This document shows, one piece after another, positions 1-62,274 of a DNA stretch of 62,274 bases; position 1 is the stretch's first letter; every line of letters starts with the position of its first letter. The translations under genes were made by a program, and so were the position numbers. This DNA is from Stx2-converting phage Stx2a_F723: sequence record AP012533. One strand, written 5' to 3'. The notes below the pieces were generated by a model that searched no databases, was not told where the DNA came from, and worked only from the letters and a program-made list of their open reading frames with translations.

Positions 1-25
1 TTATATCCATTTAACTAAGAGGACA
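1..25. repeat. Prophage att core, left copy of 25-bp direct repeat
   Basis: TTATATCCATTTAACTAAGAGGACA at 1-25 is identical to 62250-62274; integrase gene lies just inside; repeat may extend beyond the window edge. Confidence 0.7.
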
Positions 26-41967: not shown

Positions 41968-42617
41968 TGACGACGATTACAGAAATCATCGGACGTGTGA
42001 ATACACAACTGGTTGACCCGATGATGGTTCGCTGGCCCCTGCAGGAATTGTGCGATTATTACAATGATGCTGTGAGGGCAGTGATTCTGGCGAGACCGGA
42101 TGCTGGCGCAAGCCTGGAAACAATAAGTTGTGTTCCTGGCGCCCGTCAGGTTTTGCCCGATGGTGTAATACAACTTCTTGACGTGATATGCCTCAGTGAC
42201 GGTAGTGCAGTCAGACCATTATCCCGGGAGGTGCTGGATGCGCAGTATCCTGAGTGGCCCACAATGAAGGGTATTCCTGAATGTTTTATCAGCAACGACC
42301 TGTCCCCGCGCGTATTCTGGCTGTTTCCTGCTCCTGACAAAGAGATAAGTATTGATGCAGTGGTAAGCCGGATACCGGAGGCAGTGTATGTTCTGACGCA
42401 GGACGATGATACGCCAGTTCCACTGGAAGAGGCTTATGTTAACCCACTGGTGGAGTGGATGTTGTTTCGCGCTTTCAGTAAGGATGCTGCCGGTGGCGCA
42501 GAATCGGGGCTGGCTGCGCAGCATTATCAGAGTTTTGTTGAGCAACTTGGGATCAAACAGGGGGCAGACAGTGCATTGTCTGCCCGTAAAAAAGTGTTTA
42601 ACGGAGGTGGAGTGTGA
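41967..42617 (+). CDS. Hypothetical virion protein
   Basis: 216-aa ORF with coupled start/stop to neighbours. Confidence 0.55.
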   Translation: MTTITEIIGRVNTQLVDPMMVRWPLQELCDYYNDAVRAVILARPDAGASLETISCVPGARQVLPDGVIQLLDVICLSDGSAVRPLSREVLDAQYPEWPTMKGIPECFISNDLSPRVFWLFPAPDKEISIDAVVSRIPEAVYVLTQDDDTPVPLEEAYVNPLVEWMLFRAFSKDAAGGAESGLAAQHYQSFVEQLGIKQGADSALSARKKVFNGGGV

Positions 42618-44551
42618 GTGTTGTTGTTTCGGGGACGCTGAAATCTCCTGATGGTGAGGCGATATCAGGAGCAAATATTACCCTGACGGCGCTGACAGTT
42701 TCACCGGATGCGCTCAGCGGCACCAGTGCGTCGGCAGTGACCCGTGAAGGTGGATATTACGGAATGACGATGGATCCGGGGGAGTATGCGGTTTCGGTGA
42801 CGGTGAAAGGGAAGACTGTTGTCTACGGACGTGTGCGTATTGAGGGGACCGAAAGTACGGTGACGCTCAATATGCTGTTACGCCGCAGTCTTGTTGAGGT
42901 TAGCATACCCGGAGAACTGCTGACAGATTTCCGGCAGATACAGAATAATGTGGCTGATGACCTTGCCACTATTCGTCGCCTGAATGAAGACACGGCGACA
43001 AAAAACACTCAGGCCACACAGTCAAAAGAAAGTGCAGCAGCCAGTGCGAAGAGTGCATCTGACAGTGCAAAGACGGCAACCAGCAGGGCGGCTGAAGCCG
43101 GACAAAAAGCGACTGATGCCACTGAGGCTGCGACCCGTGCAGTCACAGCAGCGGGGAATGCAGAGGAAAGCTCGACCCGTGCCGGAGAGTCTGAAAAAGC
43201 CGCCGGAGCTGATGCAGAAAAAGCCAGACAGCATGCTGAAAAGGCCAGGCTGGCGCAGGAGAGCGCCGGAGAGATCCTTAAGCGGGCAGAGGCTGCCACT
43301 GTCAGTGCTGAAGAGGCCAGACGTATGGCTGAGAATGCACGGGGGCCCCGGGGGCCTCAGGGAGAAACTGGTCCGAAGGGGGATGTCGGTCCTAAAGGCG
43401 AAACAGGTCCAGTGGGCCCTCAAGGGCCCGCAGGGCCGAAAGGTGAGCGTGGTGACGTTGGTGCTCAGGGGGCTGTAGGGCCTGCTGGTCCGCGTGGTGA
43501 GAAGGGCGAACAGGGGGAGCGAGGACCGCAGGGAATACCAGGCCTGAAGGGGGATACCGGAGAGCGGGGGCCTAAAGGGGACCAGGGGGATATGGGGCCA
43601 AAAGGCGAGAAAGGTGATCCGGGAGGTCCTGCAGGCCCGCAAGGTCCTAAAGGCGAACGAGGAGAAGCCGGACCACAGGGACCGATGGGAGCACGAGGTG
43701 AGCGTGGGGAGACTGGCCCCCGAGGTGAACCTGGTCCTGCAGGTCCGAGAGGCGAACGAGGAGAGACCGGACCTCAGGGACCTCGTGGAGAGCCAGGTCC
43801 GGCAGGCAGCGCTGCAAATGTGGCTGATGCAACGACGGCACAGAAGGGAATTGTGCAGTTAAGCAGCGCAACGGACAGTGATGATGAAACGAAGGCTGCC
43901 ACCCCGAAAGCGGTGAAAGCGGCAATGGATGTGGCAAATGAAGCGAAAACAAAGGCAGAAGAGGCTGCAGCAGGAGGTGGTGTTCCCGGTCCGAAAGGAG
44001 ATAAAGGGGACACGGGGCCAGCAGGTCCGGCTGGGCCGAAGGGTGATAAGGGAGAGCGCGGTGACACCGGCCCTGTCGGGGCAACCGGCGAACGGGGACC
44101 GGCAGGTGATGCTGGTCCGGCAGGCCCGCAGGGGCCGAAAGGTGACAGGGGAGAGCGGGGAGAGACCGGTCTGACGGGAAATGCAGGTCCACAGGGTCCA
44201 AAGGGAGATACCGGTGCGGCAGGCCCGGCAGGCCCACAGGGACCGAAAGGAGAAACAGGTGCGGCAGGCCCGGTGGGGGCGACCGGACCTCAGGGGCCGA
44301 AGGGCGACCCGGGGGAGACGCAAATACGGTTCCGTCTGGGGCCGGGAAACATTATTGAGACAAACAGCCATGGCTGGTTCCCGGATACAGATGGCGCACT
44401 CATCACCGGACTGACCTTTCTTGACCCCAAAGATGCCACACGGGTTCAGGGTTTTTTTCAGCATTTGCAGGTCAGGTTTGGTGACGGGCCGTGGCAGGAT
44501 GTCAAGGGGCTGGATGAAGTGGGCAGTGATACAGGCAGAACAGGAGAATGA
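42614..44551 (+). CDS. Tail fibre protein with collagen-like Gly-X-Y repeats
   Basis: 645-aa ORF; two long runs of GXY triplets ([38 protein letters not shown]...); Ala/Glu-rich coiled-coil N-terminal region. Confidence 0.8.
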
Positions 44552-45443: not shown

Positions 45444-47069
45444 ATGCCCTATATCGATATCACCACGATGCGTGGGATGATGCCGCGCGTTGTGACATCC
45501 ATGCTGCCCGAGCATTCCGCTGTACTGGCGGAGGACTGCCATTTCCGGTTTGGTGTTATTACACCAGAACGTCAGATATCCGGGGTTGAGAAAACATTCA
45601 CAATTAAGCCAAAAACAATTTTTCATTACCGTGACGATTTCTGGTTTGCATGGCCGGATGTGGTGGATGTGATCCGCAGTCCGATCGCTCAGGACCCCCA
45701 CGGGCGTATTTACTACACTGACGGGCGTTTTCCTAAAGTGACGGATGCGACTATTGCCACAAAAGGGGACGGGAATCACCCGACATCATCGTATCGTCTG
45801 GGGATCCCCGCGCCGACGACAGCTCCTGTCTGTACTGTTCAGCAGGGCGGTGATGTTTCTGACGATAACCCGAATGATGACGAAACCCGGTTTTATACTG
45901 AAACCTTTGTCTCAGATTATGGTGAAGAAGGTCCGCCTGGTCCGGCGTCTCTGGAGGTAACACTCCGTACTCCGGGGACTGCGGTACAACTGACGCTGGC
46001 TCCGGTGCCATTGCAGAATGCCAATATTAAACGTCGCCGGATTTATCGCTCTGCATCAGGTGGAGGAGAAGCGGATTTTTTACTTGTGGCTGAACTGGAT
46101 GCGTCAGTGCTCAGTTACACGGACAAAATACCGACGAAAAACCTTGGGCCTTCCCTGGCAACATGGGATTACCTGCCGCCACCGGAGAATATGACGGGTC
46201 TTTGCCTGATGGCTAATGGTATTGCTGCCGGGTTTGCCGGTAATGAAGTGATGTTTTCGGAAGCGTATCTGCCGTATGCATGGCCGGAAGTGAATCGTCA
46301 CACGACGGCAGAAGATATTGTGGCTATCTGTCCGCTGGGAACGTCACTGGTGGTGGCGACAAAGGGGGAGCCTTATCTGTTCAGTGGTGTATCGCCTTCC
46401 ACAATTTCTGGCTCCAGAATTCCTTCCATGCAGGCATGCCTGAGCCGAAGAAGCATGGTGGCGATGGAGGGATTCGTACTGTATGCCGGGACAAACGGTC
46501 TGGTATCTGTTGATGTAAACGGTAATACAGCACTGGCAACGGAAAAGATTATTTCACCAGAACAGTGGCAGAGTCAGTTTAACCCGATGTCCATTGTGGC
46601 TTATTCCTGGCGTGGTGACTATATCGGTTGTTACACAAAACCGGATGGTAAGCAGGATGTGTTTGTATTCAGTCCGGCGAACATGGATATCCGTTATCTC
46701 AGCACGCCGTTTGACTGTGCATGGATTGATCTTGCAAAAGATATGATGCGCGTGGTGACAGGGGACAAAATGTCAGTGCTTGCCGGGGACTCTCTGCCGT
46801 CCATGATAAGGTGGCATTCAAAAATTTTTTCATTACCTGAAAGAACCTCTTTTTCCTGTATCAGAGTGAAATCTCCGGCACCTGAGCGGGTGGGGATCAC
46901 TGTTATGGCTGATGATGTTCCTGTGATTCATTTTGCGCCGGGTACGTTTAAGGGAAGTGTGGTGAGACTTCCGGCAGCAACCGGGCAAAACTGGCAGGTG
47001 ATGGTATCCGGATTCGGGCAGGTGGAACGAATAACCCTGAGTACATCGATGTCGGAGATGCCGGTATGA
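45444..47069 (+). CDS. Hypothetical tail protein
   Basis: ATG at 45444 with AAGGA SD (MPYIDITTMRGMMPRVV...); track ORF starts at GTG 45366. Confidence 0.6.
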   Translation: MPYIDITTMRGMMPRVVTSMLPEHSAVLAEDCHFRFGVITPERQISGVEKTFTIKPKTIFHYRDDFWFAWPDVVDVIRSPIAQDPHGRIYYTDGRFPKVTDATIATKGDGNHPTSSYRLGIPAPTTAPVCTVQQGGDVSDDNPNDDETRFYTETFVSDYGEEGPPGPASLEVTLRTPGTAVQLTLAPVPLQNANIKRRRIYRSASGGGEADFLLVAELDASVLSYTDKIPTKNLGPSLATWDYLPPPENMTGLCLMANGIAAGFAGNEVMFSEAYLPYAWPEVNRHTTAEDIVAICPLGTSLVVATKGEPYLFSGVSPSTISGSRIPSMQACLSRRSMVAMEGFVLYAGTNGLVSVDVNGNTALATEKIISPEQWQSQFNPMSIVAYSWRGDYIGCYTKPDGKQDVFVFSPANMDIRYLSTPFDCAWIDLAKDMMRVVTGDKMSVLAGDSLPSMIRWHSKIFSLPERTSFSCIRVKSPAPERVGITVMADDVPVIHFAPGTFKGSVVRLPAATGQNWQVMVSGFGQVERITLSTSMSEMPV

Positions 47070-48334
47070 CCAGAAAACCGTGGCGTGCGGGGAAGGATTT
47101 ATCCACAGTTGTGGAGAACATGGAAATTGGCACCGGGCAGCGTGGTGACGGACGCCACGCATTTGTGACCCGTGAGGAACTGGTTGGTCTTAAACTCGCC
47201 CGGCGTCGAACATCGGGTGGTGCCTCATATGCACTGAATCCGGGTATTGAGATTGACAGTACTTTAATGACTGTTGATTTTCCCACAAAACCGCTGAATT
47301 TTAAGGCGACAGGAGGATTTGGCTCGGTTCTTCTTGAATGGGATATGCCTAATTATCGCGGACATTCACTGACTGAAATCTGGCGGGGTACGGAGGATGA
47401 CCTTGCTGATGCAGTGCTGGTTGCCACGACGCCGGGGCAGGTTTACGGCGATCCGGTTGACCCTGGCTGGTCGGGATTTTACTGGATACGTTTTGTTAAC
47501 GCGGCAGGAGTGAAAGGTCCATGGAATGCTGAAAAAGGCACTCAGGCACAAACACAGATCGGCGTGAAGGCCATCATTGACCAGATCCGCGATGAGGCTG
47601 CAAAGTCGCCGGTTGTGTCCGAGCTGCGTAAAGAAATAAAAAACGCGCAGGGGCAGGCTGTAAAGGATGCTGCAATTAAGACAACCGAAGTTGTGGGGAC
47701 TCTCAGGGAAGAAACGACAAGAACGATTGGTGGTATTGAAACCCGCATTAGCACACTGGATTCGTCAACCAGTGAATCGCTTAATGAGGTCGACAAGCGC
47801 ATCACTAAACTGGATAAAGAAGGCGGTGAGGCGTTTCTGGCAATGTGGTCAAAAAAAGCGGGAGTTGATGGTATCACTGCGGGGATCGGGATTGTCGCCG
47901 GAAAAGACAGTGAAGGCAGGCCTGTAAGTCAGGTTGCAATTTCTGCGTCGCAGTTGTTTGTCTTTGACCCGAACAACCCGGATAACACCGCCTATCCGTT
48001 TGCGGTATCAGGTGGCAAGGTTGTGATCCCGAAAGCGATGATTTATGACGCGGTGATTGAAACACTGGTGTCGCGGAAGGTTGTGGCGGATGAGGTAAAA
48101 GCCGGGGTAAGTATCACTTCGCCAGTTATCCGGAGTGCCGTTATTCAGAACGGAAACTTTCAGGTTGATTCTCAGGGTAACCTGAATATTGGAGGCCTTT
48201 TCAGTGTTACGTCACAAGGGCAACTGACAATTCGTTACTCTAATCAGAATGTAGGACTGGTGATCCGCAATGATAAAATTGAGGTTTATGATCAGAATGG
48301 ACGACTGGCTGTTCGCATAGGCAGATTACGCTGA
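47066..48334 (+). CDS. Tail fibre/host-specificity-like protein
   Basis: 422-aa ORF; segment GFYWIRFVNAAGVKGPW resembles the fibronectin-III-like region of lambda J-type tail proteins. Confidence 0.55.
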   Translation: MTRKPWRAGKDLSTVVENMEIGTGQRGDGRHAFVTREELVGLKLARRRTSGGASYALNPGIEIDSTLMTVDFPTKPLNFKATGGFGSVLLEWDMPNYRGHSLTEIWRGTEDDLADAVLVATTPGQVYGDPVDPGWSGFYWIRFVNAAGVKGPWNAEKGTQAQTQIGVKAIIDQIRDEAAKSPVVSELRKEIKNAQGQAVKDAAIKTTEVVGTLREETTRTIGGIETRISTLDSSTSESLNEVDKRITKLDKEGGEAFLAMWSKKAGVDGITAGIGIVAGKDSEGRPVSQVAISASQLFVFDPNNPDNTAYPFAVSGGKVVIPKAMIYDAVIETLVSRKVVADEVKAGVSITSPVIRSAVIQNGNFQVDSQGNLNIGGLFSVTSQGQLTIRYSNQNVGLVIRNDKIEVYDQNGRLAVRIGRLR

Positions 48335-50998: not shown

Positions 50999-51655
50999 AT
51001 GGGTGGAAGTAAAGGTGGTGGTGATACCAAAGTAAAACCAACAGCAGCGCAAATAGCACAGGAAGAAGTGGCCTGGAAAGGGTGGCAGGATTACAAAAAT
51101 ATCCTCCGCCCGGCTGAAGATAACTTCATGGAAAAGGTCGATGACCTGAACAGTGAGCAGCAGTACGACAATATTGCTGGCACCACAAATCTGGGGTATC
51201 AGAAACAGTTTGGCGAAGCACGGAAGGAGCTGGCGGGTAATCTTGCTCAGTCCGGTGTTGACCCGTCCAGTGGTCGCTTTAACGCGGTAATGAATGCGAA
51301 CCAGAGTGATCAGGTAACCGGGCAGATTGACACAACCACACGGGGGCAGGTATCGCAGGCAGATAAGTATGTTGCCGGGCTACAGGATGTTGCAGCTCTC
51401 GGTTCAGGTCAGAAGGCGGATGCGTTACAGAGTTTTAACTCGCTGGCAGACAGCAGTCTGGCAAAAGCTAAATCGGACGCACAGGCTGCGTTTACGAAAC
51501 AGCAGGGGCGAGCCTCTCTTGTTGGCGCTGGTTTGGGTGCGGTAGGTGCATATGCGATGCATAAGGCTGGTGGTAGCGGAGGAAGTGGCGGTGCTAAAAC
51601 ACCTGGCACCGGCGCTAATGCCATTCAGTATCAGGCTCAGAACTGGAGACTGTGA
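50999..51655 (+). CDS. Hypothetical virion protein
   Basis: 218-aa ORF, Gly/Ala/Gln-rich, first of a block of coupled genes leading to the giant ORF. Confidence 0.55.
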   Translation: MGGSKGGGDTKVKPTAAQIAQEEVAWKGWQDYKNILRPAEDNFMEKVDDLNSEQQYDNIAGTTNLGYQKQFGEARKELAGNLAQSGVDPSSGRFNAVMNANQSDQVTGQIDTTTRGQVSQADKYVAGLQDVAALGSGQKADALQSFNSLADSSLAKAKSDAQAAFTKQQGRASLVGAGLGAVGAYAMHKAGGSGGSGGAKTPGTGANAIQYQAQNWRL

Positions 51656-52104
51656 TTATGGAGTACGGTAAATACGAAACACTTGCGAGATACGGTTATA
51701 CCGGAGCAGCCCGCCCTCAGGGGGACTGGCAGACATCCGCAGCGCTGACCCGCCAGCAATACGACGACTGGCGCACCAGATATTTACCCCGTGTAGCAAG
51801 GCTGGCTGACCTTGGCGAGAACAACAGCCTGATGAATGCACAGCTTGCCCGGGTGGGCGGCCTTGCCACTTCCAGTCTCCGTACAGCGCAGATGGCGCAG
51901 GATAACCAGATGGCGAGATACGGGGTAAGCCGCCCGGATAATCCCGACAGTAATACGCTGGGGTTACGTAATGCCCTGGCAATTGCTGGCGCGAAAAATG
52001 GTATCCGTGAAGCCGAACAGGATCGCCAGATGAATATTCTGACGGGGGCTTCTGCACCGGCAAGACAGAAACTGAGTGTTGGCGGACAACTGGTGGCAGC
52101 GTAA
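51652..52104 (+). CDS. Hypothetical virion protein
   Basis: 150-aa ORF with overlapping start/stop to neighbours. Confidence 0.55.
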   Translation: MIMEYGKYETLARYGYTGAARPQGDWQTSAALTRQQYDDWRTRYLPRVARLADLGENNSLMNAQLARVGGLATSSLRTAQMAQDNQMARYGVSRPDNPDSNTLGLRNALAIAGAKNGIREAEQDRQMNILTGASAPARQKLSVGGQLVAA

Positions 52105-52417: not shown

Positions 52418-53683
52418 ATGAGCGGATTTGCACAGGGGTTACTTGCCGGATTCAGCACCGTTGACCAGGCAATGACCCGTCGTAAGGAGCTTGGTTTGCG
52501 AGAAGCACAGCTTGCTCAGCAACAGAAAAATAACGAGCGCGATTTTGAATTTGCGCAGTCGCAGTTTGAGCACCGAAAAGAGAATGATCAGCGTACATAT
52601 GATCTTAATGTCAGGAATGCTGACCGTGAATATGCGCTGAAAGAGAGGGAACACAAAGCAGCGCAGAATTATCGAAATGCGTCACTTGGGCTATCTCAGC
52701 AGAGACTGCAACTGGAAAAATACAACCAGCGACGGCTTGAGTATAACGATATGATTGCCCATAGCCAGCCACTAATGGAAGCGCTTGGAAAAGCAATTGA
52801 GGCTGGCGATCAGGAGGCTGCAACGCGTCTGTTCGGGCAGCTGCCAAAGGGACATCCATTAATTCTTATGTCAAACGAAGGCTATGCAGCGAAAGCGGGT
52901 CAGGCCGTGATCAACCTGCAAAAAATCTTTGGTGATAAGCCGGACATGGCGATCGATTCGCTGAATACCCCGGAAAATCTCGATGTGCTTTCCGGCGTGT
53001 TTGCCCCGGAACTACAACAGCGTATTGGCATGCCTGATTCAACCGGGGAAAAAACGATAAAAGAGGCCAGGATTGGCAGTATCGTACCGGCGCAGCAGGA
53101 AGGGTACGTACTTATTGGCCTTGATCTCACATACAGCGATGGCTCCACCGCGCATAAACCTGTAACAGAATACGGCAGTGCGCACCCTGATGATCAAACC
53201 GTGCTGGCGATACCCGTTGATAAGGCTATCGCTCAGGTCAGGGATCGCAGCAAATTTGCAGAGATATCGAAAAATTATGGTTATTTTATGCCGAAGCAGC
53301 AGGGACTTTCTCTGAAAGAGCTTCAGAAGGGGGCCAGCAACGTAGCGGCGGACGCGATCAAGAATGGCGGTAATGCACAGGCTGCGGTGGATGAATATTA
53401 TGCTGCGACTGGTTCACAACCGCATCAACAGAAAATTCAGCAACAAAAACTTCAGCAACAGGTTATCAACTGGGCGGGAGATGATCCTGATAAGCTGTCA
53501 TTTGCCAGAAATGTAGCGGCCCGTCAGCCTGAAATGCTGGAGCCTCAGAATCAGAAATTGCTGGAGAACGGGTATGCGAATTTTCTCCGTATTCAAAAGG
53601 CTAGGGGGGAACAGGCCAGAGATGAAAGTGCTTCATCTGCATCTCAGTTTATCCGTGGACTGAAACAGAATTACGCCCAGTAA
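52418..53683 (+). CDS. Hypothetical virion protein
   Basis: 421-aa ORF, Gln-rich, followed by a terminator. Confidence 0.55.
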   Translation: MSGFAQGLLAGFSTVDQAMTRRKELGLREAQLAQQQKNNERDFEFAQSQFEHRKENDQRTYDLNVRNADREYALKEREHKAAQNYRNASLGLSQQRLQLEKYNQRRLEYNDMIAHSQPLMEALGKAIEAGDQEAATRLFGQLPKGHPLILMSNEGYAAKAGQAVINLQKIFGDKPDMAIDSLNTPENLDVLSGVFAPELQQRIGMPDSTGEKTIKEARIGSIVPAQQEGYVLIGLDLTYSDGSTAHKPVTEYGSAHPDDQTVLAIPVDKAIAQVRDRSKFAEISKNYGYFMPKQQGLSLKELQKGASNVAADAIKNGGNAQAAVDEYYAATGSQPHQQKIQQQKLQQQVINWAGDDPDKLSFARNVAARQPEMLEPQNQKLLENGYANFLRIQKARGEQARDESASSASQFIRGLKQNYAQ

Positions 53684-53717: not shown

Positions 53718-53740
53718 CCGGCCATTGTGCCGGTTTTTTT
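53718..53740 (+). terminator. Rho-independent terminator upstream of giant ORF
   Basis: CCGGC-loop-GCCGG hairpin followed by seven T. Confidence 0.6.
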
Positions 53741-53751
53741 ATGGAGTCTGT

Positions 53752-56700
53752 ATGGCCTATTCAGAGGAACAGCGTCCTGAGGCGCAACTCGGTAACCAGA
53801 ATCGTAACAGCCTGAACATTCAGCAACCCGGCGAAACTGACAGCTATGAAGCATTTTTCTCTGATCCGAATCGCTGGAAGGATAACAGTACGTCGTTCAG
53901 CCTGGGCGATGTATTGCCAACAATGGGTAAAGGTTTCGCCCAGTCCGTCCGGGGAACAGGGGAAATGGCCCGTGGACTCGGTGATGCGATGATTCAGAGC
54001 CCGGTAAAAACAGGGGCGCGTATTTTAAATGAGTTCAGCCGTATGGGGCTGCCGGGTGTCGCAACTGTGCAGGATATTTTTGCCGGTGGCAGCAGGGGGG
54101 CTGATGAGGTCATCGATACCCTGCCTGATGGCAAAAACGCGGTTACTGATACTGTCGGTAAAGGTCTGAAGGCAACCGGTAAGGCTGTCAGTGATGGTGC
54201 TAAAGCCACTGATGAATGGCTGACCGGTAAGATGTCGCCGGGTGCAGTTCGTGCGCTGAATACGCCGATGACCGAAGGCTATGATGATTCTGCGGTCTGG
54301 GTGGCGAAGGGTGTAAACCTGATTGGTGCGCTTGTACCTGATATGGTTGCTGGCGGTGTGGCTAAAAAGGTGGGTGATGTCACACTGCGAAAAATGCTGA
54401 CCGCCGGGCTGGAGAAAAAATACATCGCGGCAGGGATGCAGCCGGAAAGAGCCACGGCACTGGCAGCAGAAGCTGTCGATAAAAAAATGCCGGATTTATT
54501 CCAGGCGGGCCTGATCACCCATTCCACAGCCAGTGCACAGGGGCAGAGTGCAATGGCGGCAGCAGATGCTGTTCTTAATGCGGATTACTCTGAGCTGGCG
54601 CAGTCACCGAAATTTCAGCAGACGTTTTTGTCCATTGACGCCGACCCGCAGCACGCACAGCTTACTGATCGCCAGAAAATGGATCTGGCAAAAGAGCGTG
54701 TTGCCGATGAGGTGCGCGCGCAGCTGGCAACCGATCCTGAATTGCTGGCTGTGAATGCCATGGCGGCAAAACTGGGTGACGCACAACTGTTTAATCTGGT
54801 GACACGAGGCACAGCGAAGACCGTTAAAAGCGGCATTGTCAGAAATGCCACGGAACAGGGGGCGATTAATGCGGCGCAGGGCGGCTATTCACGCTATCAG
54901 GAAAACACGGCATTGCGTGAGACCGCCGGAATGGATGTGTCACCGTGGGAGGGCGTGGCTGACGCAACGATCGAAGGTGCAGCCTTTGGTGCTGCGATGG
55001 GGGCTCCATCCGGTGCGGTTGCCGGATATCGTGGCAGACGTCAGGCCGCAGAAGAAGCAGCCATGCGTGATGCTGAAACCGTGCAGCAGGACGACGCAGC
55101 CCCGCAACCAGAATCTGTTGATCCGGTGGCGCAGCATCGTGAATCCATGCAGGGGATGAATCGCGAGCAGCTTCTGGAGCAGTATGCTGATGCGGATATG
55201 GCAACAGAGGGTGACGCATCCGCAGCTCATCGCCGGGAAGCTGCCAGCCAGCTGTTGAATGAACTGGATGAACAGGCGAAGCGACAGGCGGTGATGGATG
55301 AGCTGAAGGCGAAGCCGCGTCCTGAACTGCTTGAGGAATACCGCAGACTCAGCCTGAAGGAAGGGCGTACTGAGACTGAAGAGCAGCAGTTACAGGCTAT
55401 CCGTGATGTGCTTCGCCCTCAGCAGGAGGCCAGACCGGAGGCACAGCCAGAAAATACAGATGATGGCGACGGGAGTATTTATCCGACGGTGCGGTTCCGC
55501 GATCCGGATGAAGTGCGTATTGAAATTAACGGGAGTGGCGCGTCCAGACCAGCGGAACGCATTGAAAAGGTGCGTCCGGACAACCGTTATTTCACGGATG
55601 AGAAAAGCGCTATGGGTAGCGATGTTTTTCGCAATGCCAGCGCCACCGGCCTGAAACCGTCCGTAGTGAAGAAAGGTGAGAATCAGTATGCCGTTGAAAT
55701 GGATAATCCTGCGTTCTCTGAAGATGTGGCAACGGAAACCATTAACACCCTGGCTGACGGAGAGCGTATTACTGATGCTGATCCGATGGAGCAGCCAGCG
55801 TTCATGCGTGACCCGCGATTCCGGGGTTTTACGGGAGATGATACAGAAGTGCAGGCCCGCCTTGCCCGTGGCAACGTGCCGACGGCGGAAGAGCTGGTGC
55901 GTTCACAGATGGCTGAAGGTGATGCCGGTCCGACAGCTCAGGAGTTAACTGAGCGTCCGCGTCTGCCCGCCCCCGGCGATATTCATCCCGGACAGGGATA
56001 TCCGTTACCGGGAGAAGTGGCGCGTACGCCGGATGAAAATCAGGCCGGACGTGGTGGTCGTTTTACCATAACCGGTGAGGTTAAGGGCCAGAGTTTCCAG
56101 AAAGGACGTGCTCCGGCACCGGAAAACGCCGCTGGTCGCCAGGGGGAAACACTCGAGGGTGAAACGGTTCGTCGGGGTCTGCCGTCACCGGATGCGCAGA
56201 ACGCGACAGCACCGGTACGTGAAGGGCTACCGGCTCCTGACATTGCGCGTAATGTTCGTATGCCTCAGCCTGAATCACTTCCCCGCACTGTACGGGACTC
56301 ACTGCCTGAGCTCGCACAGCAGGCAGAAGTACGTCGGCAGGCCAGAGAAAATCGTGACATCCTGCAGCCTGAGACAATCGCACCTGAATCTGAAACAACA
56401 GTCTCTACTGACAGGGAAGCTACCGTGCGCGGAGGTGAAGTCAGGGGCAAAAAAATTGAAGACTTTGGTGAAGAAATTAAGGGCGCGGCAAAACACCGTT
56501 ATGCACAGCTTGCCGAAACACTGGGTAAAACGCTGGAAGACAGGGATTATGTCACGCAACCGCTGAGCAAACTGTTCCCGAAACCGGACTACGCAAAACT
56601 GGCGAACGAAGGTGCCGATGCTGATACCCTGGCAATGATAGCGCTGTATCGTAGCGATATTCCGGCGAAGACGAAACTCAATGCAGTGAAGTGGGTGGAG

Positions 56701-59700
56701 AGTGTAAAGAGTATCCGCACAAGTGTGGCGGGAATGCTGGAAGGAAAAGTGACTGCCGGACGGCTTGCTGAGTGGATGGAAGGCAGAATGCCCGCCCGTT
56801 ACGCGGACACATGGCAACTGTTACGCACGCTGCCACCCTCGCAGATAGACAAGGCTTCTGCTTATCGGGTGGTATCCGGTGTGTATCAGGCGGCAGGAGG
56901 GAAACGTTACGATCCGCCACGGAAACTTTATTCACTGCGCAATAAGGACAATAAGGGGAGCAATCTCTTTTTCTCGGAAAGCAGGGATGAATTACTGACA
57001 AAGGCAAAAGCCTGGTTTGCAGAGCAGGAGGAAAAATCACAGGCGAAAGGTGATGAAAAAACAGCACTGTCACCGGATGACAAAATCAGCTTTGACGTAT
57101 ACCGGAATACCCGCAGTGGCGATATTTTTATTGCTTACGGCAAAAACAAAATGCGGGTGAGAGGTGGCTTTAAGTCAGCCAGTGATGCGCGTAAGTACAT
57201 TGATTCACATCGTGATGAGCTTGTTCGTCATGTGAAGGAGATGCGTGAGATTTCGCGTGAGGAGCAGCGTAACGCCACCAACCGCGATCGTACCGGGCCA
57301 GAACGCCGCAAGGGTGATGTCTCACCGAAGCAGTTCAGCGATGCGTTTGGTTTTCGTGGTGTGCAGTTTGGTAACTACGTGGAAGGTCCGCGTCGTCAGG
57401 CTGATTTGAACCGGGCTTATGACTCGCTGCATGACCTTGCGGAAGTACTGAATGTACCGACAAAAGCGCTTTCCCTGAACGGTCGTCTTGGCCTGGCATT
57501 TGGTGCCCGTGGTAAGGGTAAGGCGGCAGCACACTATGAGCCGGGTGAGGTGGCAATCAACCTGACAAAAGGTAACGGACCGGGTGCGCTGGCGCACGAA
57601 TGGTTCCATTCACTGGATAATTATTTTGGTCGTTATGATGTTTCCACTGACGGGAAGATTACGTCAGGTGGTGACTTTATGACGGAAGCCAGGCGTGTCA
57701 AGCGCGTATTTAAAGACGGCCGGTTTGTTGACGCTGAATATCCGGTGCGTCAGGAGGTTTACGACGCGTTTAAAGGTGTCATTGAGGCCATTAAAAACAG
57801 TGACATGCCGCGTCGTTCAGCGCTTCTCGATGAGGTGCGCTCAAAACCGTACTGGTCAACGGATGTTGAAATGGCGGCACGTGCCTTTGAACGTTATGTT
57901 CAGGATAAAGCGCGTAAAGCTGGCGTGGAGAATGATTATCTGGTCAATATCCGTAAGGCACCTGAGCACAACACAGATAACACCTACGCTTATCCGACGA
58001 ATGCGGAACTGGATGGCGGTATTCGTGAGGCATTCGATCACCTGTTCCGCACCCTGAAAACCCGTGAGACGGACAAGGGCGTTGCGTTTTATTCCCGTAA
58101 GGGCGTTACCCGCACACCTGAAGGTAATCTCATTTCGGATGTTAACCGTAGTGCGGAAGCCAAAGGCAGCCCGGTCCCGCAGGTTGAAGCGGTTGCCCGT
58201 GGCGTGATGAGCGGCATTAAGGACAGTGACCTGAAGGTCCGTGTGGTGAAGTCACAGAAAGAGGCTGAAGCGCTGGCGGGTGAATTGTTCGATGGTTACG
58301 GCAGGGTGCACGCATTCTATCGTCCGGATAAACGAGAAATTGTCCTGGTGGCGGATAACATCCCTGACGGGCGGACCGTTCGCGAGAAGCTGCGTCACGA
58401 GATCATTCACCATGCCATGGAGCATGTTGTCACACCAGCGGAATATCAGACGATTATCAAAACCGTGCTGAAAACCCGCGACAGTGATAACGTCACCATC
58501 CGTGAAGCCTGGCGTAAGGTTGATGCTTCCTATGGTAAGGAATCACCGGAAGTACAGGCGGGTGAATTTCTGGCACATATGGCGGAGAAACAGCCGAATA
58601 AATTCGTGGCGGCATGGGAGCGTGTTGTTGCCCTGGTCAAAGGGGTACTGCGTCGTACGGGGTTACTGAAGCCGACGGAACTGAACGATATCAGACTTGT
58701 TCGCGAGACCATCCGTACGTTAGGCCAGCGTGTGCGGGAAGGTTACACGCCGCGTGAGGATGGCGCGGGCGCATCGTCTCAGTACTCCCGTAGTGGTAAA
58801 CGTGATCCGTTCAAAGTGCCGGAAGGTGAGGGCGAGCGTTATCGTGATGACCTTGCCAGAATGATGAAATCTCTGCGCACCACAGATTTAACGGTAAACA
58901 TCGGGCGTACGCCGCCGGTATTGCGTCACCTTGGTGCACCGGATTTGCCGCTGGTTATTTCCCGCGATACTGTGCGGAAGGCCACCAATGGTGTGAAACA
59001 TGTGGTGCCGATGGATGTTATCGAGAGACTACCGGAACTGATGCACGATCCGGATGCAATTTACCGCTCAGCGACAGAAAGAAATGCGGTTGTGATGCTG
59101 CTTGATGCCGTGGATAAAAATGGTGATCCGGTGGTGTCAGCGGTACACATGAAGGCTGTCCGGTCGCGTCTGGAAATCAACAAGGTAGCTTCTGTTTACG
59201 GTACAGAAAATGGAAAAAAACTGAAGAGTATGGAAATGACCGGGTTAACGTTGTACCGGAGAGAAAAATTAAGCCGCGATAACCTTCTGCACAGAGGGCT
59301 CCAATTGCCCAAAGGGGAACATTCTTATCGCGGCTCTGCGGATAAAATACTCTATCCTGAAGATATTCGCAAGGGGCCGTATTACTCCCGTACCAGCAGT
59401 CTGACACCGGAAGAGACAATTGCATCGCGTTTTGTGCGCCAGATGCAGGATAAATTCCAGGTGCTGAAAGCTGTTCAGGAGAATATCCGTAAAACTGGCG
59501 GCAAAGTGGACGACAGTAACAACGCTTATATGGCGGAAGAACTCTTCCACGGGAAGGCGGAAAACGACCTGAACGTGATGAAGGAGCGCTACGTTCAGCC
59601 ACTGGCTAAATTACTGGCGGACTACAAAATTGCGCAGGCCGATCTGGATGAGTACCTCTACGCCCGTCACGCGCCGGAACGTAACGCGCATATCGCGAAA

Positions 59701-62127
59701 ATCAACCCGAAAATGCCGGACGGCGGTTCGGGGATGACCAACGCGGAAGCGGCGGAAATCATGCAGCGTGTACGTAACAGTGGCAAACAGGCACAGTATG
59801 ACCGTCTGGCAGGGATTATTGACGATATGCTGGCCCGTCGCCGTGAGCTTATCCGTGAGGCCGGACTTGAAGAGAACGGTGTGGTGGATGCCTGGCAGAA
59901 CGCCTACCGTTACTACGTTCCCCTGAAAGGTCAGGATGTTGACGGTGTGGTGTCACTGCCCCGTACAGGTAAGGGCTTCACCATCGGCGGACGTGAAAGC
60001 AGGCAAGCCATGGGGCGTGCATCCCGGGCACAGTCTCCGTCCACTCAGGCGATACAGGACCTGAGCGAATCGCTGATCCGCCATCGCAAAAACGAAGTGG
60101 GTAACGCCTTCCTGAAACTGGTGCAGGATAATCCCGACAAGGATTACTGGCAGGTATTCACCGATGACAGACCGGATACCATGCGGACGATTGCAGAGCG
60201 CAAGGACCAGGAAACTGGTGAAACCATTCGCGAAGTTGTCGAACGCCCTGTACCGATGGCAATGATGGCAGACCGGTACTTCACCACCAAAAAGAACGGC
60301 AAAACGTACTACATCAAACTCCATGATCCGCGCCTGATGCGTGCGATGAAGAATATGGGACCGGAAACCAGCAATGCCTTTGTTCGTACGCTGGGGAAAG
60401 TTAACCGCTTCCTGGCAACGGTGAACACGTCGTATAACCCGGAATTCCTGGTCAGTAACTTCATCCGTGACGTGCAGACGGCGGTGATGAACCTGAAGGC
60501 GGAGCAGGGAAGGAGCGACGGTAAACTGAAAGGGCTGGATAACTTATCCGCCCTGGCTGTGGTGAAAGACAGCCGTTCTGCCATGTCAGCCGTATACGCC
60601 AGTCTGCGTGGTAAAACCCTCACGGGAAAAGGTGCACAGTGGCAGAAGGTGTGGAAAGAGTTTGTTGAGGACGGAGGTAAAACCGGCTGGTTTAACATGG
60701 GTGACCTTGAAGGCCAGCAGAAGGAAATGGATCGCCTTGTATCGCTGGCGAAGGGAGGATGGAAAGGCCAGAGTATCGGTGCATGGAATTCGTTCCTTAA
60801 CCTTGTCGAGGATGCCAACGGGGCGGTTGAAAACGCTCTGCGTCTTTCTGCCTATAAACACGCCCGTGATGCCGGTTTGTCACGCCAGCAGGCGGCGTCT
60901 CTTGCCAAAAACATGACGGTGAACTTTAACCGTCGTGGTGAGCAGGGAGCGCTGATGAACTCGCTGTACATGTTCGCCAACGCCAGCATTCAGGGGACCG
61001 CAAACCTGGTGAGAACGCTCGGACATCTTAATGGCGACGGGCCGTTACTGGAGCGCCTTCGCTGGAAGAATCTCAATGTACCGCAGAAAATCGCGCTTGC
61101 AGCTGTGGGAGCGGGTTATCTGCTTGGCTCGCTTAACCGCAGTGTTGCGGGGGAGGATGATGACGGGGTTAACTGGTATGACAAGGTGCCGTCTCATGTG
61201 AAAGAGCGTAACCTCGTCATTATGAAATCGGTGTTCGGGGGCAAGGCCGGAGAGTACTGGAGTATTCCTCTGCCTTACGGGTACAACGTTTTCTTCCTGC
61301 TTGGTCACACAGCCGAAGGGGTGGCAGCGGGCGACCTGACCGCTTCACGTGCTGCCGGTAATGTTGTTGGTGGTGTGCTTGGGGCATTCAGTCCTGTGGG
61401 CAGTGAAACGTCGGAAACACTGTCCGGGGCATTGCTGAAAAATGCAGCACCGACAATTCTGCGTCCGTTTGCGAATCTTGCCATGAACGAAAACTTCATG
61501 GGGGCGCAGATTTACCAGGAGAACATGCCGTTTGGTACACCAAAACCTGACAGCCAGCTGGGAAGACGTTCAACGCCAGAAGCGTACAAGGCGTTTGCAT
61601 CCTGGCTGAATGCGTTCTCTGGTGGCAGCCAGTACCGTTCCGGTGCGGTGGATGTCACGCCGGAATCACTGAAATACTGGATTGACTATATCTCCGGAGG
61701 GACAGGGCGCTTCATTTCCAAAACCACGGATGCGGCGGTGAAATCGCTGAACGGTATTGATATACCGGAGCAGCAGGTGCCCTTCCTGGGGAAAATTTCA
61801 GGTGAGGTGATGCCGTATGCTGACCAGCAGAAGATGTACGACCGGATGACAGAGGTTGCGCAGTATCACGCAGAGCTGAAGAGTCTGACCGGTGCAGAAA
61901 GAACGGCGTTCATTGACGAGAACAACGGAAAATTGTCGATGAACGGGCTTATGCAGGATACCCGGAAGAGACTGAAGGATTTGCGTAAACAGCGTGATGC
62001 CATTTACGCCGACAGTACTCTCAGTCTGGCGCAACAGTCGGCGATGGTGAAATCGGTTGAGCGGGATATGAAAATTGCCGTGGATCGGTTTAACCGCGAG
62101 TACAACAAAAAAGTGGGAGTGGAGTAA
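53752..62127 (+). CDS. Giant multidomain protein (2791 aa) with two HExxH motifs; possible injected virion protein
   Basis: Uninterrupted 8.4-kb ORF; ATG at 53752 with GGAG SD (track start 53725 is TTG); HEWFH at 57595-57609 and HEIIH at 58396-58410. Confidence 0.8.
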   Translation: MAYSEEQRPEAQLGNQNRNSLNIQQPGETDSYEAFFSDPNRWKDNSTSFSLGDVLPTMGKGFAQSVRGTGEMARGLGDAMIQSPVKTGARILNEFSRMGLPGVATVQDIFAGGSRGADEVIDTLPDGKNAVTDTVGKGLKATGKAVSDGAKATDEWLTGKMSPGAVRALNTPMTEGYDDSAVWVAKGVNLIGALVPDMVAGGVAKKVGDVTLRKMLTAGLEKKYIAAGMQPERATALAAEAVDKKMPDLFQAGLITHSTASAQGQSAMAAADAVLNADYSELAQSPKFQQTFLSIDADPQHAQLTDRQKMDLAKERVADEVRAQLATDPELLAVNAMAAKLGDAQLFNLVTRGTAKTVKSGIVRNATEQGAINAAQGGYSRYQENTALRETAGMDVSPWEGVADATIEGAAFGAAMGAPSGAVAGYRGRRQAAEEAAMRDAETVQQDDAAPQPESVDPVAQHRESMQGMNREQLLEQYADADMATEGDASAAHRREAASQLLNELDEQAKRQAVMDELKAKPRPELLEEYRRLSLKEGRTETEEQQLQAIRDVLRPQQEARPEAQPENTDDGDGSIYPTVRFRDPDEVRIEINGSGASRPAERIEKVRPDNRYFTDEKSAMGSDVFRNASATGLKPSVVKKGENQYAVEMDNPAFSEDVATETINTLADGERITDADPMEQPAFMRDPRFRGFTGDDTEVQARLARGNVPTAEELVRSQMAEGDAGPTAQELTERPRLPAPGDIHPGQGYPLPGEVARTPDENQAGRGGRFTITGEVKGQSFQKGRAPAPENAAGRQGETLEGETVRRGLPSPDAQNATAPVREGLPAPDIARNVRMPQPESLPRTVRDSLPELAQQAEVRRQARENRDILQPETIAPESETTVSTDREATVRGGEVRGKKIEDFGEEIKGAAKHRYAQLAETLGKTLEDRDYVTQPLSKLFPKPDYAKLANEGADADTLAMIALYRSDIPAKTKLNAVKWVESVKSIRTSVAGMLEGKVTAGRLAEWMEGRMPARYADTWQLLRTLPPSQIDKASAYRVVSGVYQAAGGKRYDPPRKLYSLRNKDNKGSNLFFSESRDELLTKAKAWFAEQEEKSQAKGDEKTALSPDDKISFDVYRNTRSGDIFIAYGKNKMRVRGGFKSASDARKYIDSHRDELVRHVKEMREISREEQRNATNRDRTGPERRKGDVSPKQFSDAFGFRGVQFGNYVEGPRRQADLNRAYDSLHDLAEVLNVPTKALSLNGRLGLAFGARGKGKAAAHYEPGEVAINLTKGNGPGALAHEWFHSLDNYFGRYDVSTDGKITSGGDFMTEARRVKRVFKDGRFVDAEYPVRQEVYDAFKGVIEAIKNSDMPRRSALLDEVRSKPYWSTDVEMAARAFERYVQDKARKAGVENDYLVNIRKAPEHNTDNTYAYPTNAELDGGIREAFDHLFRTLKTRETDKGVAFYSRKGVTRTPEGNLISDVNRSAEAKGSPVPQVEAVARGVMSGIKDSDLKVRVVKSQKEAEALAGELFDGYGRVHAFYRPDKREIVLVADNIPDGRTVREKLRHEIIHHAMEHVVTPAEYQTIIKTVLKTRDSDNVTIREAWRKVDASYGKESPEVQAGEFLAHMAEKQPNKFVAAWERVVALVKGVLRRTGLLKPTELNDIRLVRETIRTLGQRVREGYTPREDGAGASSQYSRSGKRDPFKVPEGEGERYRDDLARMMKSLRTTDLTVNIGRTPPVLRHLGAPDLPLVISRDTVRKATNGVKHVVPMDVIERLPELMHDPDAIYRSATERNAVVMLLDAVDKNGDPVVSAVHMKAVRSRLEINKVASVYGTENGKKLKSMEMTGLTLYRREKLSRDNLLHRGLQLPKGEHSYRGSADKILYPEDIRKGPYYSRTSSLTPEETIASRFVRQMQDKFQVLKAVQENIRKTGGKVDDSNNAYMAEELFHGKAENDLNVMKERYVQPLAKLLADYKIAQADLDEYLYARHAPERNAHIAKINPKMPDGGSGMTNAEAAEIMQRVRNSGKQAQYDRLAGIIDDMLARRRELIREAGLEENGVVDAWQNAYRYYVPLKGQDVDGVVSLPRTGKGFTIGGRESRQAMGRASRAQSPSTQAIQDLSESLIRHRKNEVGNAFLKLVQDNPDKDYWQVFTDDRPDTMRTIAERKDQETGETIREVVERPVPMAMMADRYFTTKKNGKTYYIKLHDPRLMRAMKNMGPETSNAFVRTLGKVNRFLATVNTSYNPEFLVSNFIRDVQTAVMNLKAEQGRSDGKLKGLDNLSALAVVKDSRSAMSAVYASLRGKTLTGKGAQWQKVWKEFVEDGGKTGWFNMGDLEGQQKEMDRLVSLAKGGWKGQSIGAWNSFLNLVEDANGAVENALRLSAYKHARDAGLSRQQAASLAKNMTVNFNRRGEQGALMNSLYMFANASIQGTANLVRTLGHLNGDGPLLERLRWKNLNVPQKIALAAVGAGYLLGSLNRSVAGEDDDGVNWYDKVPSHVKERNLVIMKSVFGGKAGEYWSIPLPYGYNVFFLLGHTAEGVAAGDLTASRAAGNVVGGVLGAFSPVGSETSETLSGALLKNAAPTILRPFANLAMNENFMGAQIYQENMPFGTPKPDSQLGRRSTPEAYKAFASWLNAFSGGSQYRSGAVDVTPESLKYWIDYISGGTGRFISKTTDAAVKSLNGIDIPEQQVPFLGKISGEVMPYADQQKMYDRMTEVAQYHAELKSLTGAERTAFIDENNGKLSMNGLMQDTRKRLKDLRKQRDAIYADSTLSLAQQSAMVKSVERDMKIAVDRFNREYNKKVGVE

Positions 62128-62249
62128 AGAACATGCCCCGTACGGAAGTGCGGGGCATGCTTAACGGGGTGTGTACATAAATGGGTACTGATATGACGAT
62201 TATTTCGCCACTTTCTGTATTTAAATCAATGACTTAATACTTATATTCA

Positions 62250-62274
62250 TTATATCCATTTAACTAAGAGGACA
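62250..62274. repeat. Prophage att core, right copy of 25-bp direct repeat
   Basis: Identical to bases 1-25; preceded by an AT-rich stretch and a hairpin at 62133-62160. Confidence 0.7.

What the first reader, a model, noticed from the sequence alone, without database searches (positions are those of the whole stretch)
53752..62127. 2791-aa giant protein with two HExxH motifs next to attR
A single uninterrupted 8.4-kb ORF ends the virion-gene block. It contains two potential zincin-type metal-binding motifs, GPGALAHEWFHSLDNYFG (codons ~1280-1286) and REKLRHEIIHHAMEHV (codons ~1549-1554), in an otherwise unrecognisable sequence with long low-complexity Ala/Gly/Gln stretches at the N-terminus. 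Its size and position after head/tail genes in a short-tailed phage suggest a packaged protein ejected into the host, analogous to large internal virion proteins or polyvalent proteins carrying anti-defence or effector domains. I cannot assign domains by eye.
Basis: inference. Interest (0 to 1): 0.55.

Follow-up and report, generated by a model that had tools for sequence, protein, structure and literature searches.

The report
Stx-phage giant internal polyvalent protein

Summary
ORF 53752-62127 (+) encodes 2791 aa, with HExxH at residues 1282 and 1549 and zero cysteines. Its stop lies 122 bp from a 25-bp att core that repeats at both window ends.

The window is a complete 933W-like Stx2 prophage, 100% identical over this gene to phages PA28 and phi345. 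The gene is already known. It is Sp5 ORF80/ECs1242 (essential, DNA packaged, non-infectious) and phi24B gp47 (about 19 copies per virion by mass spectrometry, invisible in cryo-EM, proposed ejection protein). Databases name it an LPD5/LPD38 domain-containing protein.

Work added here:
- **HExxH-1** lies in an LPD5-zincin-LPD1 module whose model resembles PPEP, MtfA and anthrax lethal factor.
- **HExxH-2** is a minimal gluzincin with invariant H, E, H and E. Its family has at least 381 representatives and no Pfam model.
- **MuF_C** keeps an invariant His and Ser, as expected for a BECR-type RNase.
- **Terminal modules:** an N-terminal glycine-zipper module and a C-terminal LPD38 module are conserved "bookends" across relatives.
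- **Cysteine absence** matches T7, P22 and N4 ejection proteins.
- **Unsupported claims:** AAA+ ATPase, DarB-like and peptidoglycan-hydrolase readings.

The parts
53752..62127 (+). Giant ORF, 2791 aa, zero Cys; orthologue of Sp5 ORF80/ECs1242 and phi24B gp47
   Evidence: 100% identical to PA28 gp48 and phi345; full-length match to phrog_616
53718..53746 (+). Terminator-like hairpin (53718-53733 plus T run), then GGAG ribosome-binding site (53743-53746) 5 nt before the ATG
   Evidence: read directly from the sequence
54199..55071 (+). N-terminal conserved module (aa ~150-440). It lies at the N-terminus in all 41 relatives matched at BLASTP level
   Evidence: no PDB sequence relative
54964..55032 (+). 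Glycine zipper GxxxGxxxGxxxGxxxG (aa 409-425) followed by Arg; conserved in the family
   Evidence: weak Gly-zipper Pfam hits at E 0.1
55189..56451 (+). Charged, Pro-rich, poorly conserved linker (aa ~480-900), probably disordered
   Evidence: composition; lowest homologue coverage; no Pfam hit
56896..57345 (+). LPD5 domain (aa 1049-1198), N-terminal part of the first protease module
   Evidence: Pfam PF18799, E 5e-43; modelled at high confidence together with the zincin
57289..58065 (+). Zincin 1 (aa ~1180-1438): CLCA_X-like gluzincin. Contains HEWFH (nt 57595-57609), D1289 and the LPD1 helices (nt 57826-58065)
58147..58746 (+). Zincin 2 (aa 1466-1665): minimal gluzincin with HEIIH (nt 58396-58410) and E1605 (nt 58564-58566); no Pfam model
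58993..59262 (+). MuF_C domain (aa 1748-1837), a phage BECR-fold predicted RNase; H1750 and S1814 invariant
   Evidence: Pfam PF18819, E 1e-17; PMC5512222; conservation
59449..62124 (+). C-terminal conserved module (aa ~1900-2791) including LPD38 (aa 2474-2679, nt 61171-61788) and moderately hydrophobic segments at aa 2440-2467 and 2513-2549. It lies at the C-terminus in all 36 relatives matched
   Evidence: no PDB sequence relative; standalone versions exist
62132..62159 (+). 9-bp G+C-rich hairpin 5 nt after the stop codon, without a T run
   Evidence: read
62250..62274 (.). attR core, identical to window 1-25 (attL)
   Evidence: PA28 annotation

Best explanation
This is the giant internal virion protein of short-tailed Stx phages, a phage-type polyvalent protein. 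Shown by others: it is essential, its loss leaves DNA-filled but non-infectious particles, and about 10-35 copies are present in purified virions without being visible in the symmetric structure. Inferred: it is stored inside the T=9 head and expelled through the tail channel, largely unfolded, at the start of infection. The conserved N-terminal glycine-zipper module and C-terminal LPD38 module would do the structural and translocation work, serving as a conduit or membrane anchor. The middle carries the cargo: two unrelated zincin proteases and a BECR-type RNase-like MuF-C domain. The proteases most likely cut the polyprotein itself after delivery to free its domains, and possibly host proteins as well. 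The RNase-like domain would act on host RNA.
For: - **Family membership:** LPD5, LPD1, MuF_C and LPD38 all score above their Pfam thresholds. The gene is the last of the virion block.
- **Genetics:** Sp5 delta-ORF80 is plaque-negative, packaging-positive and complementable (PMC5155283).
- **Proteomics:** phi24B gp47 has an estimated mean of ~19 copies per virion. Spectral counts are highest in the top gel slices. It is absent from the cryo-EM model.
- **Zincin folds:** both HExxH regions model as zincins. Ligand residues are invariant: H1282/E1283/H1286 nearly invariant in 51 sequences, and H1549/E1550/H1553/E1605 invariant in 66.
- **First protease:** the HExxH-xx-D pattern matches the 'widely distributed phage-type MPTase' of Iyer et al..
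- **Second protease next to effectors:** zincin 2 sits directly upstream of effector domains in relatives. These include MuF_C in P0134/P0137/P0139/P0140, Zeta toxin in P0278 and LPD3 in P0271. This fits a releasing protease.
- **RNase-like domain:** MuF_C keeps an invariant His and Ser.
- **Cysteine absence:** the protein has zero Cys in 2791 aa (P ~8e-13 at the prophage's own 0.99% Cys). So do 99 of 111 large relatives. Established ejection proteins show the same: T7 gp15/gp16, P22 gp7/gp20/gp16 and N4 vRNAP/gp51/gp52.
- **Modular layout:** terminal modules are positionally fixed while the middle varies. Larger relatives add ddrB-ParB, a methyltransferase, LPD39 and LPD23.
Against: - Ejection has never been observed.
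- The Sp5 mutant also lost tail-fibre antibody binding (data not shown in that paper), which hints at an assembly role.
- No segment is strongly hydrophobic: the best 19-mer scores Kyte-Doolittle 1.38. Membrane insertion is therefore conjecture.
- In virions stored for six months the protein is still mostly very large, so the proteases are not active on it inside the head.
- No peptidoglycan hydrolase domain was found.
- There is no sequence similarity to T7, P22 or N4 ejection proteins.
Confidence: 0.7

Rival explanations
1. It is a tail-assembly factor, an AAA+ type ATPase that powers a step of tail formation and is not a delivered protein. This was the 2016 Sp5 interpretation.
For: The delta-ORF80 mutant makes DNA-filled heads with no detectable tail-fibre antibody binding. 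A COG1483 hit was reported (PMC5155283).
Against: There is no Walker A motif anywhere in 2791 aa. No ATPase family appears in Pfam, NCBIfam or PADLOC. The protein is abundant in mature virions, which is unusual for an assembly chaperone. 'Packaging-positive, infectivity-negative' is equally what an ejection-protein mutant gives.
Confidence: 0.1
2. Its metallopeptidase domains digest peptidoglycan so that a trans-periplasmic conduit can reach the inner membrane. This was suggested in the phi24B preprint.
For: Podophage ejection proteins often carry a wall-degrading activity, such as T7 gp16 (annotation). The preprint proposes this role.
Against: The preprint attributes metallopeptidase activity to MuF-C, which Iyer et al. 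classify as a BECR RNase fold. The two real zincins resemble protein endopeptidases and minimal zincins: PPEP, lethal factor, MtfA, SprT, YbeY and M32. They do not resemble cell-wall peptidases. No lysozyme, transglycosylase or M23/M15 domain is detected.
Confidence: 0.1
3. It is chiefly an anti-defence or host-takeover effector. The proteases and RNase attack host defence proteins or RNAs, and the rest of the protein is only a carrier.
For: It belongs to the polyvalent-protein class. Relatives carry ddrB-ParB and methyltransferase modules. phrog_10089 'DarB-like antirestriction' shares the LPD38 region. The MuF_C catalytic-type residues are conserved.
Against: The gene is essential on a laboratory K-12 host, whereas pure anti-defence factors are usually dispensable there. 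About 19 copies of a 305-kDa protein is far more than catalytic effectors need. There are no PADLOC matches, methylase domains or helicase domains.
Confidence: 0.2

Closest known systems
Sp5 ORF80 (ECs1242) / phi24B gp47 / PA28 gp48: the giant ORF of Sepvirinae Stx phages
   Same: It is the same gene. The DNA is 100% identical to PA28 and phi345 and 93-98% identical to most Stx2a phages. Position (last late gene before attR) and size (2791-2811 aa) also match.
   Different: Nothing substantive differs. Annotated start codons vary, giving 2791, 2793 or 2811 aa.
Phage-type polyvalent proteins (Iyer, Burroughs, Anand, de Souza, Aravind 2017, PMC5512222)
   Same: It is a giant multi-domain late-gene product with zincin MPTase hub domains, MuF-C/PBECR and LPD domains. 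LPD38 is stated to be phage-specific.
   Different: It is cargo-poor, with no methylase, helicase, ART, ParB or lysozyme domain. Its second MPTase is not captured by any Pfam model.
Phage N4 virion RNA polymerase gp50 (3500 aa)
   Same: It is a giant, Cys-free protein packaged in a T=9 podovirus head and ejected. It contains a zincin MPTase region needed for encapsidation.
   Different: There is no detectable sequence similarity and no RNA polymerase module. The estimated copy number is about 19, against the ~4 copies known for N4 (background knowledge).
T7 gp14/gp15/gp16 and P22 gp7/gp20/gp16 ejection proteins
   Same: They are internal head proteins encoded at the end of the virion block, are Cys-free, and give a 'packaged but non-infectious' mutant phenotype.
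   Different: They are three separate small proteins rather than one giant. There is no sequence homology, and the T7 gp16 transglycosylase domain is absent here.
CLCA_X / CLCA-type and M34-like (anthrax lethal factor, PPEP) gluzincins
   Different: The score of 149 bits is below the CLCA_X cutoff of 260. The domain is embedded in a polyprotein with an LPD5 N-terminal extension. Sequence identity to the structural neighbours is 11-15%.

Membership tests
Phage-type polyvalent protein (Iyer et al. 2017) | Several unrelated domains from the polyvalent repertoire in one large polypeptide | tested here: met
   LPD5, LPD1, MuF_C and LPD38 all score above their Pfam gathering thresholds
Phage-type polyvalent protein (Iyer et al. 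2017) | Zincin-like MPTase hub domain(s) | tested here: met
   Two HExxH domains have zincin folds and invariant ligands
Phage-type polyvalent protein (Iyer et al. 2017) | Encoded among late/virion genes of a (pro)phage | tested here: met
   It is the last gene of the virion block, 122 bp from attR
Phage-type polyvalent protein (Iyer et al. 2017) | Carried in the virion and delivered with the DNA | not testable with these tools
   Virion presence is shown for phi24B gp47 by mass spectrometry. Delivery is not shown anywhere.
Zincin / gluzincin metallopeptidase | HExxH on a helix plus a third ligand (Glu) on a following helix, after a three-stranded sheet | tested here: met
Zincin / gluzincin metallopeptidase | Zinc-dependent peptidase activity | not testable with these tools
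   This needs a biochemical assay
NCBIfam NF041907 CLCA_X family | Whole-protein score at or above the curated cutoff (260 bits) | tested here: not met
   149.3 bits, E 1.3e-43, covering aa 1180-1435. It is a related domain, not a family member by the curated rule.
Podovirus ejection proteins (T7 gp14-16, P22 gp7/20/16, N4 gp50-52) | Sequence homology to a characterised member | tested here: not met
   phmmer and hmmsearch give no significant match
Podovirus ejection proteins (T7 gp14-16, P22 gp7/20/16, N4 gp50-52) | Internal head location and release before or with the DNA | not testable with these tools
   Internal location is inferred from mass-spectrometry presence plus absence from the cryo-EM map. 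Release is untested.
Podovirus ejection proteins (T7 gp14-16, P22 gp7/20/16, N4 gp50-52) | Compositional signature: absence of cysteine (my own criterion, derived from the controls) | tested here: met
   0 of 2791 residues here. T7 gp15/16, P22 gp7/20/16 and N4 gp50/51/52 also have 0.
AAA+ ATPase (COG1483, claimed in 2016) | Walker A P-loop and an ATPase domain match | tested here: not met
   No [AG]xxxxGK[ST] motif. No ATPase family in Pfam or NCBIfam.
DarB-like antirestriction protein (phrog_10089) | Methyltransferase plus helicase modules | tested here: not met
   Only aa 2349-2679 (the LPD38 region) matches the C-terminal end of that 4647-position profile. No methylase or helicase is found in Pfam.

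The most novel reading that the evidence does not exclude
The N-terminal glycine-zipper module and the C-terminal ~900-aa LPD38 module may together form an unrecognised, widely shared 'ejection chassis' of giant Cys-free phage proteins. Cargo would be swapped between these two ends. In Stx phages about 19 copies of this single protein would replace the three-protein ejectosome of T7 and P22. After delivery, the two zincins would cut it to release an active BECR RNase into the host.
Probability: 0.3. Interest if true: 0.6.

Novelty: already known. Interest (0 to 1): 0.3.

Why it matters
Short-tailed Stx phages spread Shiga toxin genes. This gene sits in 427 of 5426 complete E. coli genomes, takes up 13% of the phage genome and is essential, yet its mechanism is unknown. 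The domain map gives concrete residues to mutate: E1283, E1550, H1750 and the glycine zipper. It also corrects two published annotations (AAA+ ATPase; 'MuF-C metallopeptidase'). Absence of cysteine may be a simple, cheap predictor of ejected phage proteins.

Tried and rejected
- Whole-protein and profile searches of PDB sequences found nothing usable. This covers the whole protein, A1, A2, the N-module A3 and the C-module A4.
- PADLOC gave no match.
- Tiled Pfam at E<=10 added only noise for aa 1-1040 and 1850-2470.
- The word-indexed homologue search on zincin 2 returned only near-identical fragments. The exhaustive representative search was needed.
- hhalign of the two zincin profiles shows no relationship beyond the motif, so they are not a duplication.
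- The search for related loci with alignment A2 failed because there was no conserved 7-10 column stretch.
- The afdb50 fold library was unavailable.
- Comparison with T7, P22 and N4 ejection proteins gave no homology.
- The Walker A search was negative.
The N- and C-terminal modules and aa 1850-2470 therefore remain unfolded.

Full report
**Observation**

The window carries an open frame from 53725 to 62127 on the + strand. Translation from the ATG at 53752 gives 2791 residues ending in a single stop. A GGAG lies 5 nt upstream of this ATG.

HExxH occurs exactly twice, as HEWFH at 1282-1286 and HEIIH at 1549-1553. Histidine makes up only 1.3% of the protein, so 0.034 such motifs are expected by chance. 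The first and last 25 bases of the window are identical (TTATATCCATTTAACTAAGAGGACA). The PA28 GenBank record labels the right-hand copy attR. The window is therefore one complete prophage, and the giant gene ends 122 bp from attR.

**Identity**

The 8.4-kb gene is 100% identical to Escherichia phages PA28, phi345 and Lys19259Vzw. It is 90-99% identical to 185 Stx-converting phage records. PA28 is classified as Traversvirus, Sepvirinae. The gene is present in 427 of 5426 complete E. coli genomes, where PGAP names it 'LPD38 domain-containing protein'. It matches PHROG 616 end to end.

**What the literature already says**

- In Sp5 of O157:H7 Sakai the orthologue ORF80/ECs1242 (2793 aa) is essential. 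The deletion excises, packages DNase-resistant DNA and makes normal-looking heads. It forms no plaques or lysogens and is complemented in trans (PMC5155283).
- The Sp5 authors filed it under 'tail formation' and noted a COG1483 AAA+ hit.
- A 2026 preprint on phi24B (10.64898/2026.04.10.717836) found gp47 (2811 aa) in purified virions. It reported the LPD5, LPD1, LPD38 and MuF-C domains, could not see the protein in cryo-EM, and proposed an encapsidated ejection protein.
- The preprint's supplementary table estimates 11-35 copies per virion, mean 18.7.
- Spectral counts are highest in the uppermost gel slices: 2188, 1686, 1187, 1260, then falling. The portal peaks in slice 5 and the major capsid protein in slice 11. 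The virion form is therefore mostly very large.
- Iyer et al. 2017 (PMC5512222) defined the polyvalent-protein class and these LPD domains.

**Domain map made here**

Pfam gives four domains:

| Domain | Residues | E-value |
|---|---|---|
| LPD5 | 1049-1198 | 5e-43 |
| LPD1 | 1359-1438 | 7e-24 |
| MuF_C | 1748-1837 | 1e-17 |
| LPD38 | 2474-2679 | 2e-48 |

*First HExxH.* This motif lies between LPD5 and LPD1.

- NCBIfam's CLCA_X model spans 1180-1435 at E 1e-43, though below its curated cutoff.
- Many free-standing ~330-aa proteins consist of just LPD5 plus this region plus LPD1.
- In a 51-sequence alignment, H1282, E1283, H1286 and D1289 are at least 90% conserved, as are an upstream AAAHYEP and Glu residues in the LPD1 helices.
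- This is the pattern Iyer et al. describe for the widespread phage-type MPTase: a His at the end of strand 2 and an Asp three residues after HExxH.
- An AlphaFold model of aa 1040-1445 has pLDDT 83 and pTM 0.78.
- LPD5, the HExxH core and LPD1 thus form one gluzincin-type enzyme module.

*Second HExxH.* Pfam has no model for this region; the best hit is Peptidase_M76 at E 0.1.

- An exhaustive HMMER search with aa 1460-1690 found 381 cluster representatives at E<1e-3.
- Of the 149 listed whose sequences were retrieved, 111 are proteins of 1500-6026 aa.
- In 66 of them, H1549, E1550, H1553 and E1605 are invariant and E1612 is 94% conserved.
- The model of aa 1466-1665 has pLDDT 85.7. It shows helix, three strands, the HExxH helix and a later Glu-bearing helix.
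- In BFVD the fold recurs in fragments of giant viral polyvalent proteins. It also recurs in an independently predicted phi191 fragment, with TM 0.96.
- The two zincins are not related to each other beyond the motif.
- In relatives, zincin 2 often sits just upstream of an effector domain. These are MuF_C in P0134, P0137, P0139 and P0140, Zeta toxin in P0278 and LPD3 in P0271.

*MuF_C.* Iyer et al. classify this domain as a phage BECR-fold predicted RNase, not a peptidase. The preprint's phrase 'MuF-C metallopeptidase' is therefore a mislabel. In 20 homologues plus the query, H1750 and S1814 are invariant, and H1799 and K1743 are 95% conserved. This matches the His plus Ser/Thr pattern given for active versions.

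*Bookends.* BLASTP of the giant against 124 large relatives shows four conserved blocks separated by a poorly conserved, charged, Pro-rich stretch at ~480-900.

- The aa 150-440 block lies at the N-terminus in every relative that has it.
- The aa ~1900-2791 block always lies at the C-terminus.
- The N-block contains a conserved GxxxGxxxGxxxGxxxG zipper at 409-425.
- The C-block is the best conserved part (40-56% identity). It has moderately hydrophobic segments at 2440-2467 and 2513-2549.
- Distant relatives keep zincin 2, MuF_C and LPD38 but lack LPD5/LPD1.
- Larger relatives add ddrB-ParB, a methyltransferase, LPD39 or LPD23.
- A Halomonas prophage encodes a free-standing 686-aa LPD38 protein as the last gene of its virion block.
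- Neither terminal module has a sequence relative in the PDB.

**Cysteine**

- The protein has no cysteine. At the 0.99% Cys of the other long ORFs of this prophage, the chance of that is about 8e-13.
- 99 of 111 large relatives, which are less than 50% identical to one another, also have none.
- As a control I translated known ejection proteins:
  - T7 gp15 (747 aa) and gp16 (1302 aa read) have none.
  - P22 gp7, gp20 and gp16 have none.
  - N4 vRNAP (3500 aa), gp51 and gp52 have none.
  - Terminases, tailspikes and replication proteins of the same phages have about 1%.
- Some non-ejected structural proteins are also Cys-free, for example P22 scaffold, P22 needle and N4 capsid. The signature is therefore suggestive, not specific.

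**Mechanism**

The best-supported reading is a head-internal protein that is expelled through the tail at infection. The terminal modules would provide structural or translocation function. The zincins would act as processing proteases, or possibly host-directed ones. A BECR RNase-like domain would be the deliverable.

- Shown: gene essentiality, virion presence, zincin folds and conserved catalytic-type residues.
- Inferred: ejection, autoprocessing, RNase activity and membrane insertion.
- The protein stays large in stored virions. Any self-cleavage would therefore have to occur after release.

**Rivals**

- *AAA+ tail-assembly ATPase.* No Walker A motif and no ATPase domain are found.
- *Peptidoglycan digestion by the metallopeptidase.* The zincins resemble protein endopeptidases, and no wall hydrolase domain is present.
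- *Purely anti-defence role.* This is hard to square with essentiality on K-12 and with about 19 copies per virion.

**Verdict**

The object is already described genetically, proteomically and in domain databases. My additions are incremental:
- fold-level confirmation of both proteases;
- recognition that the second belongs to a large family without a Pfam model;
- the MuF-C catalytic-type residues;
- the bookend architecture;
- the Cys-free signature;
- two corrections to published annotations.

Novelty: already known. Interest: 0.3.

Noticed in passing
window 50999-51655, 51652-52104, 52418-53683 (also 42614-44551 and 47066-48334): The ORFs just upstream of the giant gene are also completely Cys-free, while other long ORFs of the prophage average about 1% Cys. 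By size and order three of them appear to correspond to phi24B gp51, gp50 and gp48. Those proteins were detected in virions by mass spectrometry and are not among those built into the cryo-EM model. The 421-aa ORF corresponds by position and size to Sp5 ORF79, an essential gene. They are candidates for further ejection proteins.
   Followed up: partly
window 1-25 and 62250-62274: An identical 25-bp sequence (TTATATCCATTTAACTAAGAGGACA) lies at both ends, so the window is cut exactly attL to attR of the prophage.
   Followed up: yes
window 53718-53740 and 62132-62159: A terminator-like hairpin with a T run lies between the upstream gene and the giant gene's ribosome-binding site. It implies read-through, antiterminated late transcription. 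A 9-bp G+C-rich hairpin without a T run follows the stop codon.
   Followed up: no
T7, P22 and N4 loci L002, L003, L004: Experimentally established ejection proteins are all Cys-free, whereas terminase, tailspike and replication proteins are not. The Cys-free set is T7 gp15/16, P22 gp7/20/16 and N4 vRNAP, gp51 and gp52. Cys absence may be a general, easily computed marker of ejected phage proteins.
   Followed up: partly
proteins P0278 and P0271: Short proteins join the Pfam-less HExxH-2 zincin directly to a Zeta-toxin kinase (P0278, 504 aa) or to LPD3 (P0271, 368 aa). They look like protease-plus-effector cassettes.
   Followed up: no
L006 10001-14970: A 924-aa LPD38 protein sits beside an integrase and a DarT/Macro (DarTG-like) pair in a metagenomic contig. 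It looks like a prophage remnant next to a toxin-antitoxin or defence module.
   Followed up: no
literature (PMC5155283; bioRxiv 10.64898/2026.04.10.717836): Two published annotations of this protein are not borne out. No AAA+/COG1483 ATPase features are present. MuF-C is a BECR RNase-type domain rather than a metallopeptidase. The real metallopeptidase motifs lie elsewhere, at aa 1282 and 1549.
   Followed up: yes
window versus PA28 record (NC_041935): The window is 982 bp longer than the PA28 genome record, although the giant gene is identical. PA28 annotates an IS3-family transposase pair in the tail-fibre region, and I did not see a matching long ORF at the corresponding offset in the window. 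The two prophages therefore differ by at least one indel upstream.
   Followed up: no
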